This document shows, in pieces, positions 2,770-56,948 of a stretch of 64,000 nucleotides of DNA. Where the stretch lies: positions 431,656 to 495,655 of the forward strand of contig CAVVCK010000002.1 in assembly GCA_963746775.1 (NCBI GenBank), read 5' to 3'. A program made the position numbers and the translations under genes. Numbering within the stretch: the stretch's first letter is position 1; every line of letters begins with the position of its first letter. Below the pieces are notes generated by a model. That model was not told the DNA's origin and ran no database searches. It saw only the letters and a list, made by a program, of their open reading frames with translations. The DNA is from an uncultured bacterium. Its GTDB lineage: Bacteria; Patescibacteriota; JABMPQ01; CAVVCK01.

Positions 2770-2800
2770 TGTTTTTGTTTTGCTTTTAAAATTATATCAC

Positions 2801-2840
2801 AAATACGTAGGGGTTCAAAATTTTGAACCCCTACGTATTT
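2801..2840. terminator. Perfect 40-nt palindrome (AAATACGTAGGGGTTCAAAA|TTTTGAACCCCTACGTATTT), probable stem-loop terminator
   Basis: Read directly. It sits between the stop of the GT4 gene (2859) and the start of the DUF4012 gene (2769). Confidence 0.55.
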
Positions 2841-2858
2841 GTAAATTATGTTTCATAT

Positions 2859-4020: not shown

Positions 4021-4112
4021 AAATTCCTAATTTCTAATAAAATTTTTAATATCCAATGACAAATTATTTTTGAAATTTGACATTTGGATTTTTATTAGGA
4101 ATTAGAAATTGG
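4021..4112. repeat. Family-A word hairpin (TAGAAAT/GGAAAT words), long imperfect inverted repeat
   Basis: ATTCCTAATTTCTAATAAAA...TTTTATTAGGAATTAGAAATT outer arms and ATCCAATGACAAATT...AAATTTGACATTTGGAT inner arms fill the spacer between two GT4 genes. Confidence 0.6.
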
Positions 4113-5304: not shown

Positions 5305-5358
5305 TTATTTTTAGCTAATTTATCTTATTATATTAAATAAATATTTTATATTCAACAT

Positions 5359-5390
5359 AAATAGCCTAAATATGAATATTTAGGCTATTT
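5359..5390. terminator. 14-bp perfect stem-loop (AAATAGCCTAAATA tgaa TATTTAGGCTATTT)
   Basis: Read directly. It lies between the structured RNA region and the start of the GT4 gene. Its role (terminator versus spacer hairpin) is uncertain. Confidence 0.4.
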
Positions 5391-5414
5391 TAAACTATTT
5401 TTCACAAAAAAACC

Positions 5415-5443
5415 TTGACATTATTACTATTATGTGTTATCCT
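5415..5443 (+). promoter_or_regulatory. Sigma70-like promoter TTGACA-N17-TATCCT with TGn extended -10
   Basis: TTGACA at 5415-5420, TG at 5435-5436, TATCCT at 5438-5443. It points into the GC-rich structured region. Confidence 0.5.
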
Positions 5444-5449
5444 TTATTG

Positions 5450-6022
5450 TTTGTTCATTTACAAAATTTCCTTTTCTCTTTATAGCCCTAAAATTTAAGG
5501 CTTTAATGAGGAAAGGAGGTAGCATGAGTAGCTACCCGAGTGGGTTTGTCTAACAATAGGCAAAAATGCGAACCAGACCAAGATTCGACGGGGCGTCGAG
5601 GTCTGGTTGAACTTATTTTCCCCGTTAAACCTCTAACTGACAGAAGAAAGGAGGTTAACCCTGATTAAATCAGATTATGGCATGACGGCTTGCCATTTTC
5701 TGAAGAGCAAGAATAACCGTCAAACCCCCTGCATATTAAGGAGGTAAAATGCAGGTACACAAACGCTGGTTAGCAATGCTAACTAGCGCGATCTGAGAAA
5801 ACGCCACTCAGATCGTACAGAGGCGGTTCCCTGGGAGTTACCGCCGGGCGAAAAACTCCCAAACGGCCACGCTCAAGGCCACACCGAGACAGGCGATCTC
5901 GGCATTGAGCACAGGGGGCAAGCACCACATCGATCTTTTGCTTCGCCCCCACCCTTTTCAGAAAATATAATTAAATTGTATTTTGTGAAAATTAAAAAAT
6001 CACGCCTTAGGCGTGATTTTTT
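5450..6022 (+). ncRNA. Unclassified large structured RNA (about 570 nt). Strand is assigned from the promoter/terminator pair and is not certain.
   Basis: 210 of 420 nt are G+C in 5521-5940, against 18-30% in flanking lines. More than 10 directly readable helices, two pseudoknot-type pairings and three AAGGAGGU boxes. No credible ORF. See findings. Confidence 0.6.
5994..6022. terminator. Intrinsic terminator, A6-ATCACGCC-tta-GGCGTGAT-T6 (bidirectional geometry)
   Basis: GC-rich 8-bp stem flanked by an A-run and a T-run. Confidence 0.75.
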
Positions 6023-6048
6023 ATTATCTATTATTTTATTCAAAGTAC

Positions 6049-6069
6049 AGACAGGTTTCAAACCTGTCT
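6049..6069 (-). terminator. Stem-loop AGACAGG tttcaaa CCTGTCT directly after the stop of the Wzz-like gene
   Basis: Read directly. A covarying paralogue lies at 9390-9410. Confidence 0.5.
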
Positions 6070-6073
6070 TACC

Positions 6074-9410: not shown

Positions 9411-9427
9411 CTTCATTATTAACTTTA

Positions 9428-9886
9428 AATAGGCAGGCTATAAGCCGAATTCTGTCTCATCCGCCATAGATTAACAGCGAAGGCGGATTGCCTTCATTGA
9501 AAACTACGGCGAATACTATGATCATCTATCTAGCCTTACTATTACTAGCAAGGTCATGCTTTTTATAAATTACACCAGATGGGGTTTACCCTATTATAAT
9601 GTTACCATTATAACCTGTGAGCTCTTACCTCACTCTTTTCACCATTGCCTGCCATAGCCTATAAAGGCGACGGCTGGCTGTATATGTCTCTGTGGCACTT
9701 TCCCTCACCCTATCTAGAAGATAGAGTGCAATTGCCGTTAGCAATCACCTTGTTTCAAAGTCCCAAGGATTAATAGAAAATCCTATGAGGTTTTTCTACT
9801 CTCGAATCCATAAGCTCTGAGGTGTTCGGACTTTCCTCCCCTTATTATTATATAAATAATAAGAAGCGATCATAAACCTGCCTACT
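9428..9886 (-). ncRNA. rnpB: RNase P RNA, bacterial type A
   Basis: The minus strand reads ...TAGGCAGG...GGGGAGGAAAGUCCGAACACC (CR-I), GGUGAAAAGAGUGAGGUAAGAGCUCACAG (CR-II/III region) and GACAGAAUUCGGCUUAUAGCCUGCCUA (CR-V plus the P1 3' strand). Confidence 0.9.
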
Positions 9887-13137: not shown

Positions 13138-13827
13138 TTATATCTCTATTACTGCCACTGGGTTCCCTTCTTTCTCTTCTATTGTAACTTTCTTAATAAT
13201 AACATCATTAACAGGTTTATCATTGCTATTAGTTGGAGTCTCTGAAATTGCTTCAACTACATCCATTCCTTCAATTACTTTACCAAAAACAGCATGCTTA
13301 CCATCAAGCCAAGGTGTACCTTCCTTGGCATCTATTATAAAAAATTGGCTACCGCCAGTATTAGGTCCGGCATTGGCCATCGAAATTGATCCATATTCAT
13401 TAATCAAACTCTCATCAAATTCATCTGGAATGACCCAAGTACTCTCATCATTAGGGTCACCATAACTTTCGTGATATTTGGCGGCATGTCCACCCGTACC
13501 ATTTTTATTAGTAAAATCTCCTCCTTGAATCATAAAATCATTAATTATTCTGTGGAAAGGTGCACTATTGTATTTTCCAGCGCGAGCGAGATCTATAAAA
13601 TTTTGGGATGTTACAGGAGCCTTATCTTTATATAATTCAAGCTTTATCGTGCCAGCGATTTTATTTACCTCTTTTTCTGTTTCCATGTTATTTTCTTTTA
13701 AATTATTATTTATGTTTTTTGTACCCCCTACTACTTCCCCACTTATATTATTGTCACTACCACATCCAGCCGTAATTAAAGCAAATGAAAATAATAGAAT
13801 AATACTAAAAATTAATTTCTTTTTCAT
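13138..13827 (-). CDS. Cyclophilin-type peptidyl-prolyl isomerase, lipoprotein
   Basis: Signal peptide with lipobox ITAGC. FHRIINDFMIQGGDF, SMANAGPNTGGSQFFI. Confidence 0.9.
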   Translation of the reverse strand: MKKKLIFSIILLFSFALITAGCGSDNNISGEVVGGTKNINNNLKENNMETEKEVNKIAGTIKLELYKDKAPVTSQNFIDLARAGKYNSAPFHRIINDFMIQGGDFTNKNGTGGHAAKYHESYGDPNDESTWVIPDEFDESLINEYGSISMANAGPNTGGSQFFIIDAKEGTPWLDGKHAVFGKVIEGMDVVEAISETPTNSNDKPVNDVIIKKVTIEEKEGNPVAVIEI

Positions 13828-13860: not shown

Positions 13861-13940
13861 CATCCGCTTTATCCGCCAAATCCGCTAATCCGTAAACAAT
13901 AGATAACGGATTAGGCGGATTATTGCGGATAAGCGGAAAA
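13861..13940. repeat. Family-B word hairpin (ATCCGC/GCGGAT words), copy B1
   Basis: CATCCGCTTTATCCGCCAAATCCGCTAATCCGT...ACGGATTAGGCGGATTATTGCGGATAAGCGGAAAA. The left arm is nearly identical to copy B2. Confidence 0.75.
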
Positions 13941-13944
13941 TATA

Positions 13945-14484
13945 TCAACGAGTCTTGTAATTCATGTTCATTATTTCTAAAAATTTTATAAATACTTGTG
14001 CTGTTACTTTAACATCACCTAAAGCTCTATGTCTATCTTCTTCTTGTATCCCTACCCCCATTCTCCTCGCTACAACATCCAAGTTGTGGCTCCTCTCATA
14101 GGGAAATAATTTTCTAGACAAATTAAGGGTACATACGAATTTTGGAATTGGCAAATTAATTCCGCAAAGATTAATCTCCGCTTGTAAAAATTTTTTATCA
14201 AAAGAAGCATTGTGGGCAACTAAAGCACTATCTCCAACGAATCGTAAAAACTTAGGTAATACTTTATACATCGTAGGCTTATTCTCAACCATTTCATCAG
14301 TTATACCATTTACTGCTGAAGCACTAAGAGATATAGGCCTTTCCGGATTAACCAGAGCTTCAAATTTTTCATTAGTTATTTTGCCATCAACTATTTTTAT
14401 AGCTGCCATTTCAATGATACGATCTCCTTGATCGGGACTTAAACCCGTGGTCTCTGTATCAAAAATTGTATACATTCTTCTCAT
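13945..14484 (-). CDS. DnaQ-family 3'-5' exonuclease (Pol III epsilon-like)
   Basis: FDTETTGL, HNASFDKKFL and HRALGDV correspond to Exo I-III. Confidence 0.85.
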   Translation of the reverse strand: MRRMYTIFDTETTGLSPDQGDRIIEMAAIKIVDGKITNEKFEALVNPERPISLSASAVNGITDEMVENKPTMYKVLPKFLRFVGDSALVAHNASFDKKFLQAEINLCGINLPIPKFVCTLNLSRKLFPYERSHNLDVVARRMGVGIQEEDRHRALGDVKVTAQVFIKFLEIMNMNYKTR

Positions 14485-14488
14485 TTTT

Positions 14489-15100
14489 TTATTTTTCTTC
14501 TATAAAATATTTCTTTAAGTCTTTTCTACTCTTCATTTCAGGTAGACAATTATCTATGAAGTTTTTGTAAGTATAATTCTTATGTGGGAATTGGCTTAAA
14601 ACTATCTCTTTATTACATAAAGTCCCTGATCTTTGATTTACATAGTCTAGATAGTTAGACCAAGGATATTTATTGAGGTTATGGGTTATTTTGTGTAGTT
14701 TAGGATTTAGATTAATGTAGGCAGAGAGCCAGAGAAGATATTCGTTGGAGTTAATGCGGATGGATTTGAAGCGGTCCTGGAATAATATACCGGATTTATC
14801 ATGTTTTTTATTAAAATAAATGGTATAGCTCGTTCCTAACCTATACATAAATTCTGAAATAGCATTATCTGACGTTTGTTTTAATATGAAATGATAATGA
14901 CTAGGATTTAGGCAGTAGGCTATAAATTCTACTCCCAAAGACTCAGCCTTTTTCAGAAAGGCTGAGTCTTGAGATTTTAAGCTTCTTATGGTTTTAATAA
15001 AGCGAATATAATCTCTTGTTTCTAAAAAAATATTTCTTTTATCTACACCACGGTTGTAGATATGATAATACTCGTTATTAGAAAATATAGTCCTCCTCAT
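14489..15100 (-). CDS. IS200/Y1-transposase-like protein of the REP-associated tyrosine transposase (RAYT) type
   Basis: YHIYNRGVDKRNIF...AYCLNPSHYHFIL (HUH)...FQDRFKS...YINLNPKLHKI...YPWSNY. Confidence 0.75.
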   Translation of the reverse strand: MRRTIFSNNEYYHIYNRGVDKRNIFLETRDYIRFIKTIRSLKSQDSAFLKKAESLGVEFIAYCLNPSHYHFILKQTSDNAISEFMYRLGTSYTIYFNKKHDKSGILFQDRFKSIRINSNEYLLWLSAYINLNPKLHKITHNLNKYPWSNYLDYVNQRSGTLCNKEIVLSQFPHKNYTYKNFIDNCLPEMKSRKDLKKYFIEEK

Positions 15101-24699: not shown

Positions 24700-24764
24700 T
24701 TTTTAAAGTTAGAATTTTAAATTTAGAATCTAGCTATTTTATTCTATATTCTACATTATAAATT

Positions 24765-25019
24765 CTACATTCCTTCAATCTCTTTTATTTTAACATAAGG
24801 ACCGCTAATTTGGCTAATTTCTACTTTAGAACCGCTCAAAACTGTCCCTTTACTTAATAATTTAATATTAAATTTCAAATTAGAAGGTAGAATAGTTTCT
24901 CCATGCTCAGAAATTTTTCCCAAGCCAATTTTAATATTAGTAATTTTTTTTAAGCCATTTTTTCTGGCATACTCTTTTATATCCCGAACTATTTTGTCTG
25001 CTGCATGTAGGTCGTGCAT
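24765..25019 (-). CDS. HypA-like nickel metallochaperone lacking the zinc-ribbon domain (84 aa)
   Basis: Starts MHD (compare the MHE Ni site). The alignable HypA core runs up to EISQISG...VKIKEIE. No CxxC pairs anywhere. Confidence 0.6.
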   Translation of the reverse strand: MHDLHAADKIVRDIKEYARKNGLKKITNIKIGLGKISEHGETILPSNLKFNIKLLSKGTVLSGSKVEISQISGPYVKIKEIEGM

Positions 25020-29599: not shown

Positions 29600-29670
29600 C
29601 TGTTTTTGACCTGCTTATCTGTAATATTTAAAAAGCGGACTTAGCGGATTTTAGCAGATACGCGGAAAAA
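29600..29670. repeat. Family-B word hairpin, decayed copy B4
   Basis: The right arm AAGCGGACTTAGCGGATTTTAGCAGATACGCGGAAAAA is intact. The left arm is degenerate (CTGCTTATCTG in place of CCGCTTATCCG). Confidence 0.55.
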
Positions 29671-45153: not shown

Positions 45154-45172
45154 AAATCATTAACTATGTAAT

Positions 45173-45250
45173 TATCCGCTTTATCCGCCAAATCCGCTAT
45201 ATCCGTAAACTACAAATAGCGGATAAAGCGGATTCTGCGGATAGACGGAA
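45173..45250. repeat. Family-B word hairpin, copy B2, between rplN and rplX
   Basis: ATCCGCTTTATCCGCCAAATCCGCTATATCCGTAAAC...AGCGGATAAAGCGGATTCTGCGGATAGACGGAAAA. Confidence 0.75.
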
Positions 45251-45280
45251 AAAACATACTGATAAATTTTATAATCTACT

Positions 45281-49037: not shown

Positions 49038-49096
49038 TAGAAAATAGAAATTTGTAATAGATATTAGAAACTAGAATTACAAATTTCTATTTTCTA
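49038..49096. repeat. Family-A hairpin A4: perfect 21-bp stem TAGAAAATAGAAATTTGTAAT / ATTACAAATTTCTATTTTCTA with a 17-nt loop, between rplW and rplB
   Basis: Arms at 49038-49058 and 49076-49096 verified base by base. Confidence 0.85.
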
Positions 49097-50853: not shown

Positions 50854-50914
50854 TTCCGCGCTATCCGCAAACTAAGTTATTGCGGATGATACGGATAAAG
50901 CGGATTACGCGGAT
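50854..50914. repeat. Family-B word hairpin, copy B3 (short left arm), in the rpsJ-rplC spacer
   Basis: TTCCGCGCTATCCGCAA...TTGCGGATGATACGGATAAAGCGGATTACGCGGATC. Confidence 0.65.
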
Positions 50915-50951: not shown

Positions 50952-51001
50952 CCGGAAATTTAAGAAGCCAGAAAACATACGCCGGCTTCTAAAATTTCCG
51001 G
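50952..51001. repeat. 18-bp stem-loop CCGGAAATTTAAGAAGCC / GGCTTCTAAAATTTCCGG (one mismatch)
   Basis: Read directly. In the rpsJ-rplC spacer. Confidence 0.7.
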
Positions 51002-51072: not shown

Positions 51073-51096
51073 AAGTCCCGATTTTAATCGGAACTT
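51073..51096. terminator. Small stem-loop AAGTCCCGAT ttta ATCGGAACTT just after the rpsJ stop
   Basis: Read directly. One C/A mismatch. Confidence 0.4.
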
Positions 51097-52659: not shown

Positions 52660-52701
52660 TTTTTTATTTTTAGTTAATAGTTATATAAAATATTAGTTTA
52701 T

Positions 52702-52729
52702 ATTATAGCTGTAAATTTACTTATGTCAA
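52702..52729 (-). promoter_or_regulatory. Consensus promoter TTGACA-N16-TATAAT upstream of tuf
   Basis: Minus strand has TTGACA at 52729..52724 and TATAAT at 52707..52702. Confidence 0.6.
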
Positions 52730-52747
52730 ATGTTTTTTGGGCTTTTT

Positions 52748-52856
52748 CACAGTATTAATATACCAATTTATGCGAATTATACGAATAAATACTTGATTAG
52801 TATTATTAATATCAATTAGTATGCTTATCTCGAGTATTTTCGAGAGATTAGCATCG
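52748..52856. repeat. Family-C word element, copy C3
   Basis: AGTATTAATATACCAATTTATGCGAATTATACGAAT...GATTAGTATTATTAAT...GATTAGCATCG. Shares its ends and words with C1 and C2. Confidence 0.55.
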
Positions 52857-52861
52857 AAATA

Positions 52862-53191
52862 TTAGAAATCATCATCTAGATCTTCATATAGATATTGGGT
52901 TTCATTTTTTAAATCTTCATCAGTAGAATCGCCTGTTAAAAAATGATCATCTAGATTTTTTTCCTCTTCATTTTGACTAGCGTGCCAAATAGCTATATCT
53001 TTATTGATTTTCTCTACTAATTCTTCTTTAGACATTTCTCCTATAAAAACATTTTCTGAATTAGAGACTATTTTCTTATATTCCTTAATATCCATTAATA
53101 CATATGAGGGTTTACCTTCTTCTACAATAATATACTTACCACTAGAATTTTTTAATAGATCAATAATTTCGGAAAAATCTTTTGAATTCAT
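52862..53191 (-). CDS. Hypothetical acidic 109-aa protein between fusA and tuf. The N-terminal third resembles Phd/YefM-type antitoxin folds.
   Basis: SGKYIIVEEGKPSYVLMDIKEYKKI, then an acidic tail ending YEDLDDDF. Confidence 0.55.
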   Translation of the reverse strand: MNSKDFSEIIDLLKNSSGKYIIVEEGKPSYVLMDIKEYKKIVSNSENVFIGEMSKEELVEKINKDIAIWHASQNEEEKNLDDHFLTGDSTDEDLKNETQYLYEDLDDDF

Positions 53192-55503: not shown

Positions 55504-55585
55504 CGATACTAATATACTAATTTATACGAATTATACTAATACAAAATTATTCGTATTATTAGTATTCATTCGTATATTGGCATCG
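55504..55585. repeat. Family-C word hairpin, copy C2, between rpsG and fusA
   Basis: CGATACTAATATACTAAT...TTAGTATTCATTCGTATATTGGCATCG. Both ends are nearly identical to C1. Confidence 0.7.
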
Positions 55586-56784: not shown

Positions 56785-56948
56785 AAAAAATAGAAACTGG
56801 CTATATAGAAAATAGAAATTGGTAATAGAAATTAGAAAAATTGAAAATAGTTATGATATAATTCAAATGAAACAAAAGCTATTTTCTAATTTCCAATTAC
56901 TATTACTATCTTCCAATTTCTAAATAGCTAATTTCAATTTCATTTTTT
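56785..56948. repeat. Family-A word hairpin, copy A5 (about 65-nt arms)
   Basis: AAAAAATAGAAACTGGCTATATAGAAAATAGAAATTGGTAATAGAAATTAGAAAAATTGAAAATAG...CTATTTTCTAATTTCCAATTACTATTACTATCTTCCAATTTCTAAATAGCTAATTTCAATTTCATTTTTT. Confidence 0.65.

What the first reader, a model, noticed from the sequence alone, without database searches (positions are those of the whole stretch)
13861..13940. Family B: dispersed long hairpins built from tandem ATCCGCnnn words mirrored as nnnGCGGAT
Four copies are present:
- 13861-13940
- 45173-45250
- 50854-50914
- a decayed copy at 29600-29670

The left arms of B1 and B2 are nearly identical over 37 nt (ATCCGCTTTATCCGCCAAATCCGCTA[A/TA]TCCGTAAAC). Each arm is 3-4 tandem 8-9-nt words. 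All copies have the same orientation relative to the minus-strand genes and end with GCGGAAAA.

They are GC-rich islands in AT-rich spacers. They lie between co-directional genes, so they would be transcribed as about 35-bp RNA hairpins. One copy lies about 550 bp from the only Y1/RAYT-like transposase gene (14489-15100), which raises a REP/RAYT-type relationship.

In the decayed copy the CCG words read CTG on one arm only.
Basis: seen in the sequence. Interest (0 to 1): 0.6.

Follow-up and report, generated by a model that had tools for sequence, protein, structure and literature searches.

The report
Mobile word-built hairpins, not REP/RAYT
Four copies of a long DNA hairpin built from repeated ATCCGC words sit between genes of a tiny candidate-phyla-radiation (CPR) bacterium; they behave like small mobile insertions and resemble the arms that flank an unstudied nuclease gene (GxxExxY) in many phyla, rather than classical REP elements.

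Summary
Window 13861-13940 and 45173-45250 are ~35-bp imperfect hairpins (fold z about -7 to -9). 50854-50914 is an asymmetric copy and 29600-29670 a decayed one. Each arm is 2-4 tandem ~9-nt words with core ATCCGC, mirrored as GCGGAT (7 pattern hits against 0 expected).

The source is a Patescibacteria (CPR) genome.

The REP/RAYT reading is not supported:
- There is no GT[AG]G foot.
- The Y1 gene has subclass-2.1 motifs, a class with no known REPs, and scores 39 bits against an 80-bit RayT cut-off.
- It is packed in a conserved ROK-RecJ-Y1-DnaQ-like operon.

Copies B2 and B3 are insertions in the ribosomal-protein operon. Relatives from six independent gene look-ups have a 10-nt L14-L24 spacer against 127 nt here. 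Copy B1 is kept at its orthologous site in a relative and is the most conserved stretch there.

Hairpins with the same word and period occur in many phyla. In some, the two arrays enclose a GxxExxY (PF13366, PD-(D/E)XK) gene. GxxExxY genes picked by protein alone were also flanked by ~9-nt word arrays whose word tracks the protein clade.

Best reading: ORF-less, MITE-like members of this class. The mobilising enzyme is unproven.

The parts
13861..13940 (.). Copy B1. The plus-strand left arm has four words (ATCCGC at 13862, 13871 and 13880; ATCCGT at 13888). The loop is ~12 nt. The right arm has GCGGAT-type words and ends in GCGGAAAA. B1 lies 5 nt after the stop of the DnaQ-like exonuclease gene (13945-14484, minus) and 34 nt before the start of the cyclophilin gene (13138-13827, minus).
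   Evidence: Sequence. Fold z -7.2 and -8.8. The same element is at the orthologous spacer of L123, L124 and L125. That spacer is 93-97% identical against 70-85% in the flanking genes.
45173..45250 (.). Copy B2, between rplN (L14, 45281-45649, minus) and rplX (L24, 44830-45153, minus). It is 81% identical to B1.
   Evidence: It is an insertion: the L14-L24 spacer is 10 nt in L610, L611-615, L616-617, L618 and L619-620, against 127 nt here.
45154..45280 (-). Whole L14-L24 spacer. About 116 nt are inserted directly after the rplN stop codon. The ancestral GTATAAATATT is retained next to the rplX ATG.
   Evidence: Alignment by eye with three empty sites.
50854..50914 (.). Copy B3, between rpsJ (S10) and rplC (L3). 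It is flipped relative to B1 and B2, and asymmetric: two words on the plus-strand left arm, four on the right.
   Evidence: It is absent from the otherwise alignable S10-L3 spacer of L610.
29600..29670 (.). Copy B4, a decayed relic. The GCGGA-type words are kept on one arm. The other arm reads CTG for CCG (CpG to TpG transitions).
   Evidence: Its fold is not better than shuffles.
14489..15100 (-). Y1 (HuH) gene. It is a neighbour of B1 but is not shown to be linked to the family.
   Evidence: Pfam Y1_Tnp E=8e-9. Subclass-2.1 motifs. Below the RayT cut-off. Conserved ROK-RecJ-Y1-exonuclease-cyclophilin synteny.

Best explanation
Family B is a small family of non-autonomous, palindromic insertion elements (MITE/REP-like in behaviour) in a Patescibacteria genome.

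Each element is about 80 nt. Its two arms are inverted arrays of 2-4 tandem ~9-nt words with the core ATCCGC/GCGGAT.

Shown:
- The copies are related by descent.
- Two of them are insertions into very short spacers inside the ribosomal-protein operon, so they must be read through by RNA polymerase and do not abolish expression of the essential genes downstream.
- One copy is old, sits at a fixed orthologous site, and is more conserved than its flanking genes.

Inferred:
- The words are recognition sites for a sequence-specific protein that copies or moves the element.
- The best candidate kind is a GxxExxY-type PD-(D/E)XK nuclease (TIGR04256 / PF13366). In many other phyla, arrays of the same word, period and mirror arrangement enclose such a gene. 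ORF-less hairpins far outnumber the ORF-bearing forms. The word changes with the nuclease clade.
- On this reading Family B copies are the ORF-less form, mobilised in trans.
- Once inserted they are co-transcribed as ~35-bp RNA hairpins. These are plausible substrates for double-strand-specific processing or act as stability elements, and at least B1 may have been taken over for such a host function.
For: The family is real and non-random. B1 and B2 are 81% identical, including the variable spacers between words, so they arose by copying and not by convergence.

Insertion evidence:
- Relatives found in five look-ups (L610, L611-615, L616-617, L618, L619-620) have empty L14-L24 sites.
- L610 has an empty S10-L3 site.
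- L610 has no ATCCGC or GCGGAT hexamer in 20 kb.

The same architecture is abundant elsewhere:
- 28 of 120 genome loci hit by the three-word pattern are mirrored hairpins.
- More than 120 metagenome loci match the window's own topology.
- The word period is 9 nt (222 cases) or 10 nt (94 cases), with a median of 6 words per element. Host GC ranges from 0.37 to 0.69.
- The flanking genes are unrelated housekeeping genes in random orientation.

Link to GxxExxY:
- All five PF13366/TIGR04256 ORFs in the 600-odd loci held at that point (about 120 of them chosen by control words) lie between or next to the arrays.
- L151 holds a decayed ORF remnant between arrays.
- Nine GxxExxY genes were chosen by protein alone (L621-L629). 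Eight are bracketed by short word arrays, five inverted and three direct. The ninth has a full GCGGAT hairpin just downstream.
- At least three of these genes (L626, L627, L629) sit in short spacers between co-directional housekeeping genes, such as fabD-X-fabG.
- The word follows the protein clade. The GYGFLE clade has ATCCG/CGGAT words. The GAGLLES clade (L627 and L629, 55% identical) has CACAGAG words.

The window holds two further word-hairpin families inserted in the same operon.
Against: - No GxxExxY ORF was found in the window or in about 100 kb of CPR relatives. The rest of the 547-kb genome could not be read.
- The shared hexamer could be coincidence. The wide family was found by searching with that hexamer, and control words could not be run on the genome collection.
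- Among genome hits, the window's topology (ATCCGC arm first) is the minority form: 1 against 20.
- The AT[AG]GAAC foot seen in many relatives is absent here.
- No target-site duplication could be defined.
- B2 and B3 are seen in one assembly only (one search failed).
- Mismatch types in 97 elements give no strand signature: G.T 43 against A.C 38, concordance p about 0.12. So nothing yet shows whether DNA or RNA is the relevant form.
Confidence: 0.5

Rival explanations
1. REP/RAYT system. The hairpins are REP-type sequences recognised as single-stranded DNA and spread by the neighbouring Y1 protein (14489-15100).
For: - A Y1/HuH gene is the only transposase-like gene in the window, and B1 is 549 nt from it.
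- Some bona fide REPs use the same hexamer pair as a single-word stem: P. entomophila TGTAGGAGCGGATTCATCCGCGAT and a subclass-2.6 motif in B. xylanisolvens.
- Every CPR Y1 homologue examined carries its own palindrome inside the gene. This recalls REP insertions in subclass-2.4 genes.
- The palindrome in L123 contains ATCCG/CGGAT.
Against: - No GT[AG]G foot.
- Subclass-2.1 motifs; 39 bits against the 80-bit RayT cut-off.
- No REPtron arrangement: the gene is packed in a conserved operon.
- Y1 homologues occur without ATCCGC hairpins.
- There is no Y1 gene in 1.5 Mb around such hairpins elsewhere.
- The stems are 2-3 times longer than REP stems and are built of words.
Confidence: 0.12
2. Host cis-acting RNA elements. 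The hairpins are selected in place as processing sites, mRNA stabilisers, attenuators or insulators between cistrons. They are copies only in the sense of a shared functional design.
For: - The B1 spacer is the most conserved segment of a 4.8-kb alignment (93-97%), while another spacer in the same alignment is 40-55%.
- The gene-sense 3' arm is 100% identical in two species and nearly identical in B2.
- Three of the four or five changes in the other arm are C to U. These keep G.U pairs on the sense strand, so the sense RNA fold stays stronger than the antisense fold: -32.7/-30.2 against -27.9/-23.2 kcal/mol.
- All four copies lie 25-60 nt upstream of a start codon.
Against: - B2 and B3 are absent from every relative sampled, so they are not needed for the operon.
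- No consistent promoter or terminator signal.
- No Rfam family.
- B4 is decaying.
- There are only two species for B1, and C to T bias explains the asymmetry equally well.
- This reading does not exclude a mobile origin followed by exaptation.
Confidence: 0.2
3. Double-stranded DNA operator arrays. Each word is a binding site for a chromosomal DNA-binding protein (a ribbon-helix-helix type, as for omega or MetJ, or a DnaA-like protein) that polymerises on mirrored arrays.
For: - Tandem plus inverted short words with a fixed period are the format of omega, MetJ, ParG and Fur operators (own knowledge).
- The words read T[TA]ATCCGC[ACT], one or two bases from the DnaA box TTATCCACA.
- The word cores are better kept than the complementarity of the spacers between them.
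Against: - The neighbours are unrelated housekeeping genes with random orientation.
- Copies were inserted inside an operon.
- The A7-to-G difference from the DnaA box is constant, and in GC-rich relatives the word is ATCCGCG.
- No DnaA_C or HTH domain is detectable in the Y1 C-terminus.
Confidence: 0.08
4. Local, non-mobile origin. Each hairpin grew in place by replication slippage of a short word plus template switching between arms (quasi-palindrome correction).
For: - The unequal arms of B3 (2 against 4 words) look like a slippage intermediate.
- Three different word families coexist in one genome.
- Whole elements occur as tandem arrays elsewhere (L214, L238).
Against: B1 and B2 share the same order of different inter-word spacers (TTT, CAA, TA) over 37 nt at unlinked loci. 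That needs copying of a whole element. Slippage may still explain changes in word number after insertion.
Confidence: 0.05

Closest known systems
REP / REPIN elements with RAYT (TnpA-REP) Y1 transposases
   Same: Short, dispersed, extragenic palindromes. A single-copy Y1/HuH gene is in the neighbourhood. Some REPs use GCGGAT...ATCCGC as their stem.
   Different: No GT[AG]G or CGTC foot. The stems are ~35 bp and made of 3-4 tandem 9-nt words, instead of 8-15 bp. The Y1 is subclass 2.1-like and below the RayT cut-off, and it is not flanked by the repeats.
Bacterial MITEs co-transcribed as long hairpins (Correia/NEMIS, RUP, BOX, ERIC; own knowledge)
   Same: About 80-150 nt, palindromic along the whole length, inserted in intergenic spacers including operons, with presence/absence between relatives. 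They are transcribed into long hairpins; for Correia elements these are known RNase III substrates.
   Different: No parent insertion sequence with matching ends, no defined target-site duplication, and arms built from tandem words.
GxxExxY (TIGR04256 / PF13366 PDDEXK_3) gene cassettes bracketed by word arrays.
   Same: Same core word (ATCCGC/GCGGAT) in one protein clade. Same 9-10-nt period, 2-5 words per arm and mirrored arrays. Same niche in short spacers between co-directional housekeeping genes.
   Different: Family B has no ORF. Its arm order is the minority topology. The AT[AG]GAAC foot is absent. No GxxExxY gene was seen in the CPR DNA available.
Intervening sequences of 23S rRNA and their small ORFs (own knowledge)
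   Same: Hairpin-bounded inserts tolerated inside highly expressed, essential transcription units, because the long stem is processed at the RNA level.
   Different: Family B lies between protein-coding cistrons, not in rRNA. Processing is not shown.
Operators made of short tandem and inverted words (omega heptads, MetJ metboxes, Fur hexamers; own knowledge)
   Same: Arrays of a 6-8-nt core at a fixed short period, in direct and inverted orientation.
   Different: Those are promoter-bound regulons. Family B and its relatives are dispersed, and at least two Family B copies were inserted, with no common gene context.

Membership tests
REP/REPIN-RAYT | Conserved 5' GT[AG]G (or CGTC) tetranucleotide at the foot of the hairpin | tested here: not met
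   In the gene-sense orientation the feet read TTTTCCGC... and ...GCGGATGG (B1) or ...GCGGATAA (B2).
REP/REPIN-RAYT | Repeats flank the Y1 gene (REPtron, within about 1 kb on both sides) | tested here: not met
   recJ ends 9 nt upstream and the exonuclease gene starts 4 nt downstream. The only copy nearby is 549 nt away, beyond that gene. The same synteny is seen in L123-125.
REP/REPIN-RAYT | Y1 protein of a REP-associated subclass / RayT equivalog | tested here: not met
   SHYH, FQ and YINLNP motifs fit subclass 2.1. NF047646 scores 39.1 bits against a cut-off of 80.
REP/REPIN-RAYT | Tens to hundreds of copies per genome | not testable with these tools
   Only 64 kb of the 547-kb contig is readable. 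It holds four copies.
REP/REPIN-RAYT | Repeat and Y1 clade co-occur across relatives | tested here: inconclusive
   L123-125 have both. L122 and L126-131 have the Y1 gene but no ATCCGC hairpin in 4-20 kb.
MITE | Terminal inverted repeats spanning the element | tested here: met
   The whole element is an imperfect palindrome.
MITE | Presence/absence at orthologous sites | tested here: met
   B2 and B3 are absent from all sampled relatives. B1 is fixed in two species.
MITE | Target-site duplication | tested here: inconclusive
   The flanks are AT-rich. A possible TATAAA on both sides of B2 cannot be told from chance.
MITE | Autonomous partner with the same ends in the genome | not testable with these tools
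   None is present in the window.
GxxExxY word-array cassettes (provisional) | Arms are tandem 9-10-nt words with a constant 6-nt core, mirrored between arms | tested here: met
   Window periods are 9, 9 and 8-9 nt. The class has periods of 9 nt (222 cases) and 10 nt (94 cases).
GxxExxY word-array cassettes (provisional) | Sits in short spacers between co-directional housekeeping genes | tested here: met
   B1-B4 compared with fabD-X-fabG, radA-X and ade-X.
GxxExxY word-array cassettes (provisional) | A PF13366/TIGR04256 ORF lies between or next to the arrays, or elsewhere in the same genome | tested here: not met
   hmmsearch found none in the window or in the CPR loci. The rest of the genome was not tested.
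GxxExxY word-array cassettes (provisional) | AT[AG]GAAC / GTTC[CT]AT foot next to the arrays | tested here: not met
   Seen in many relatives but not in B1-B4.
Intrinsic terminator | GC-rich stem, 3-8-nt loop, U-run directly after the stem | tested here: not met
   No terminator-like site at B1 or B2. Only a weak sub-stem at B3. The loops are 12-14 nt.
Any Rfam family | Match at or near the gathering score | tested here: not met
   Only RNase P in the window. The hairpins give sub-threshold matches to generic miRNA-precursor models only.

The most novel reading that the evidence does not exclude
Family B and its cross-phylum relatives form an undescribed class of selfish elements. Their ends are arrays of ~9-nt recognition words for a small GxxExxY PD-(D/E)XK nuclease, with word and nuclease co-diversifying. 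The ORF-less hairpins (the large majority) are mobilised in trans. The elements persist inside operons because the long stem is harmlessly processed in the transcript. This would give a function to a very large orphan protein family and add a new kind of prokaryotic mobile element alongside REP/RAYT and IS-derived MITEs.
Probability: 0.3. Interest if true: 0.8.

Novelty: new variant of a known kind. Interest (0 to 1): 0.6.

Why it matters
**For this genome.** A reduced (about 0.5 Mb) CPR genome tolerates, and has recently gained, several families of long palindromic insertions inside its ribosomal-protein operon. This bears on how such operons are transcribed and processed in these organisms.

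**More broadly.** The same word-built architecture is widespread, and its full-length form carries a GxxExxY nuclease gene. At least 8000 protein clusters in the database match that family (capped), and it has essentially no literature. If words and nuclease are partners, that suggests what this family does. It would also define a repeat class that current REP, MITE and Rfam catalogues do not capture.

Tried and rejected
- **Exact 24-mer of the conserved arm in metagenomes:** 0 hits. No close relatives are available there.
- **Rfam, gathering and E-value modes:** nothing except generic hairpin models.
- **Promoter and terminator scans:** nothing consistent. A hand-read TTGGCG-N17-TATAAA in the B1 arm is not reproduced in B2-B4.
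- **DnaA-box idea:** dropped. The word differs constantly at box position 7, and the Y1 C-terminus shows no DnaA_C or HTH domain.
- **Y1 genes near hairpins elsewhere:** none by tblastn or hmmsearch, even at E=50.
- **Strand test on stem mismatches (G.T against A.C):** not significant.
- **Control words in viral contigs:** Only the mirrored fraction could be compared: 5/120 for ATCCG (four of them true hairpins), 0/119 for ATCGC, and 8/119 iteron-like for TACCG. This is weak evidence.
- **Exact-protein look-ups** for the window's L14, L24 and an edge gene failed. B2 and B3 therefore lack an independent assembly and the genome could not be walked.
- **REP tables in Quentin 2018 and Nunvar 2010:** only single-word GCGGAT stems. 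This is a resemblance, not membership.
- **Integron attC:** considered because some relatives have AAC...GTT feet. The RYYYAAC/GTTRRRY boxes do not fit, and Family B lacks the feet.
- **Recurrent neighbour genes or regulon:** none.
- **Organism name:** not obtainable.

Full report
**1. Observation**

The four loci are as described. The window is about 31% GC with almost all genes on the minus strand.

- ATCCGC occurs 24 times against 9 expected.
- Three tandem words (ATCCGCN{2,4}ATCCGCN{2,4}ATCCG) occur 7 times against 0 in shuffles, only in B1-B3.
- A two-word pattern with up to 2 mismatches finds nothing beyond the four loci.
- B1 (13861-13940) and B2 (45173-45250) fold at about -41 to -43 kcal/mol on either strand, with z from -7 to -9.
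- B3 (50854-50914) folds at z about -3. B4 (29600-29670) is not better than shuffles.
- B1 and B2 are 76/94 identical. They share the order of the different inter-word spacers (TTT, CAA, TA), so they are copies of one element.

One detail of the finding is wrong. B3 is flipped relative to the others and does not end in GCGGAAAA. It also has 2 words on one arm and 4 on the other.

**2. Context**

Homologues of the Y1 protein and of L24 are named Parcubacteria, Paceibacteria or Patescibacteria. The source contig is 547 kb, so this is a CPR genome.

- B1 lies between a DnaQ-like exonuclease gene and a cyclophilin gene.
- B2 lies between rplN and rplX.
- B3 lies between rpsJ and rplC.
- B4 lies upstream of an EamA transporter gene.

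**3. The REP/RAYT idea**

The Y1 protein carries SHYH, FQ and YINLNP motifs. These match subclass 2.1 of Quentin et al. 2018 (PMC6006769). The authors found no REPs for that subclass by automatic or manual search.

It scores 39 bits against the 80-bit cut-off of NCBI's RayT model. The gene is packed between recJ (9 nt away) and the exonuclease gene (4 nt away). The order ROK-RecJ-Y1-exonuclease-[B1]-cyclophilin is kept in a relative whose Y1 is 65% identical. B1 is therefore near the Y1 gene because of conserved synteny, not as a flanking REP.

There is no GT[AG]G foot. Other CPR Y1 loci have no ATCCGC hairpin in 15-20 kb. About 1.5 Mb around similar hairpins from other organisms contains no Y1 gene.

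Two residual points favour a link. Some true REPs use a single GCGGAT/ATCCGC stem. Each CPR Y1 gene carries its own internal palindrome.

**4. Old and new copies**

The orthologous spacer of L123-125 holds B1. It is the best-conserved stretch of a 4.8-kb alignment: 93-97% against 70-85% in genes and 40-55% in another spacer.

Conservation is asymmetric. The gene-sense 3' arm (ACGGATTAGCGGATTTGGCGGATAAAGCGGATGG) is unchanged. The 5' arm has mostly C-to-T changes, which keep G.U pairs in the sense transcript. As a result the sense fold stays stronger than the antisense fold in the relative. This fits an RNA-level constraint but also fits a plain C-to-T bias.

By contrast, the L14-L24 spacer is 10 nt (TAA-GTATAATATT-ATG) in every relative recovered in five L24 look-ups (79-85% L24 identity), against 127 nt here. 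The insertion lies directly after the rplN stop codon. The S10-L3 spacer of L610 aligns with the window through two conserved hairpins but lacks B3. L610 has no ATCCGC or GCGGAT hexamer at all in 20 kb.

So B2 and B3 are lineage-specific insertions into an essential operon. B4 is decaying by CpG-to-TpG changes.

**5. The same architecture elsewhere**

Of the 120 loci, 28 are mirrored word hairpins. They come from Acidobacteriota, Chloroflexota, Planctomycetota, Bacteroidota, Gemmatimonadota, Verrucomicrobiota and others.

- The word period is 9 nt (222 cases) or 10 nt (94 cases), with a median of 6 words per element. Host GC ranges from 0.37 to 0.69.
- In the topology-neutral scan, the GCGGAT-first order outnumbers the window's order 20 to 1.
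- Many relatives carry an AT[AG]GAAC / GTTC[CT]AT piece. It is the outer foot in one order and lies next to the loop in the other.
- Neighbours are assorted housekeeping genes with random orientation. Whole elements can be tandemly amplified (L214, L238).
- Rfam has nothing.
- Stem mismatches give no strand signature.

**6. A cargo gene**

In some loci the two arrays are 200-800 nt apart and enclose a ~125-aa ORF. In L028, L104 and L164 this ORF matches TIGR04256 'GxxExxY protein' and PF13366 PDDEXK_3 at E=1e-27 to 1e-42.

All five such ORFs in the loci held at that point lie between or next to arrays. L151 holds a truncated remnant. PF13366 is the only recurrent non-housekeeping family among 150 small ORFs next to arrays.

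As an independent test, GxxExxY genes were picked by protein alone: one viral contig and eight plasmid or chromid records.

- Five are bracketed by inverted word arrays 390-435 nt apart.
- Three are bracketed by direct word arrays.
- One has a complete GCGGAT hairpin just downstream.
- At least three (L626, L627, L629) sit in short spacers between co-directional housekeeping genes, for example fabD-X-fabG, radA-X and ade-X.

The word differs by lineage: GCGGAT, CACAGAG, ACAAATCG, AATCC or CGCGAAGG. It follows the protein clade. GYGFLE-type proteins go with ATCCG/CGGAT words. The two GAGLLES-type proteins (55% identical) go with CACAGAG words.

The family is very large (at least 8000 clusters, capped) and almost absent from the literature searched.

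**7. Interpretation**

The best-supported reading is that Family B copies are ORF-less, MITE-like members of this word-array class.

Shown: common descent of copies; insertion into operon spacers; fixation and conservation of one copy; existence of the wider class and its association with GxxExxY genes.

Inferred: that the words are protein recognition sites; that a GxxExxY-type nuclease (not the Y1 protein) mobilises them; that the transcribed hairpins are processed or stabilise mRNA.

The weak points are these:
- No GxxExxY gene was seen in the CPR DNA available.
- The shared hexamer may be coincidental.
- The window's arm order is the minority topology.
- No target-site duplication could be defined.

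The window also holds two other word-hairpin families inserted in the same operon: AGAAATT words at L23|L2, and ATAC[GT]AAT words of period 9 at L6|L18, S7|EF-G and Phd|EF-Tu. This fits several word/enzyme pairs or a general tolerance for such inserts.

**8. Verdict**

The feature is real and non-random. The REP/RAYT reading is not supported. It is a new variant of the miniature-palindrome kind, with a testable and possibly new link to an orphan nuclease family.

Noticed in passing
window 14938-14970 (inside the Y1 gene); L123 6985-7020; L122 10186-10220; L126 10184-10242: Every CPR Y1 homologue examined has a strong in-frame palindrome (12-28 bp stems) at the same place, in the variable stretch before the HuH motif. 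The sequences are unrelated to each other and each is unique within its locus. The one in L123 contains ATCCG/CGGAT. This region is the least conserved part of the gene (17-38% between window and L123).
   Followed up: partly
window 4022-4110, 24710-24767, 37501-37595, 49038-49096, 56808-56913, 63027-63160: A second hairpin family, built from AT-rich words (AGAAATT / AATTTCT). The copy at 49038-49096 has a perfect 21-bp stem and sits in an L23-L2 spacer of 185 nt, against 14 nt in relative L610.
   Followed up: partly
window 42994-43055, 55505-55580, and within the spacer 52660-52861: A third hairpin family, built from ATAC[GT]AAT words mirrored as ATT[CA]GTAT, with period 9. It lies in the L6-L18 (103 nt against 20 nt in L610), S7-EF-G and Phd-EF-Tu spacers of the ribosomal-protein region.
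   Followed up: partly
window 50952-51001 and about 51073-51096: Two hairpins in the S10-L3 spacer are conserved in L610. The longer one (CCGGAAATTTTAGAAGCC...GGCTTCTTAAATTTCCGG followed by UUUUUGAUA) shows a compensatory T-A to C-G change. It could be an attenuator or leader upstream of rplC. There is no Rfam match.
   Followed up: partly
L104 2754-3258, L028 6270-6796, L164 1377-1840, L205 1239-1794, L218 749-1434, L621-L629: GxxExxY (PF13366) genes are bracketed by tandem ~9-nt word arrays whose word differs between protein clades. L228 carries a DUF5995 gene between the same GCGGAT/ATCCGC arrays.
   Followed up: yes
L214 72-678 and 1591-1827; L238 4800-5300; L176 2221-2514: Whole GCGGAT-word elements are amplified as head-to-tail tandem arrays (units of about 83-102 nt).
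   Followed up: no
window 2799-2842 and 36974-37073: A perfect 44-nt palindrome (ACAAATACGTAGGGGTTCAAAATTTTGAACCCCTACGTATTTGT) and a 100-nt hairpin at -50 kcal/mol, both in intergenic spacers. Neither belongs to families A-C.
   Followed up: no
window 5764-5868: A very stable structured stretch (-51 kcal/mol) in the 5305-6073 spacer. It has no Rfam match at gathering score and may be an unannotated RNA.
   Followed up: no
window 9425-9885 (-): Bacterial RNase P RNA, class A (166 bits).
   Followed up: yes
window 52862-53191 (-): A small ORF with a weak Phd/YefM antitoxin-like match lies between the EF-G and EF-Tu genes. An ORF of similar size (107 aa), with the same weak Pfam match, lies at that position in L610.
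   Followed up: no
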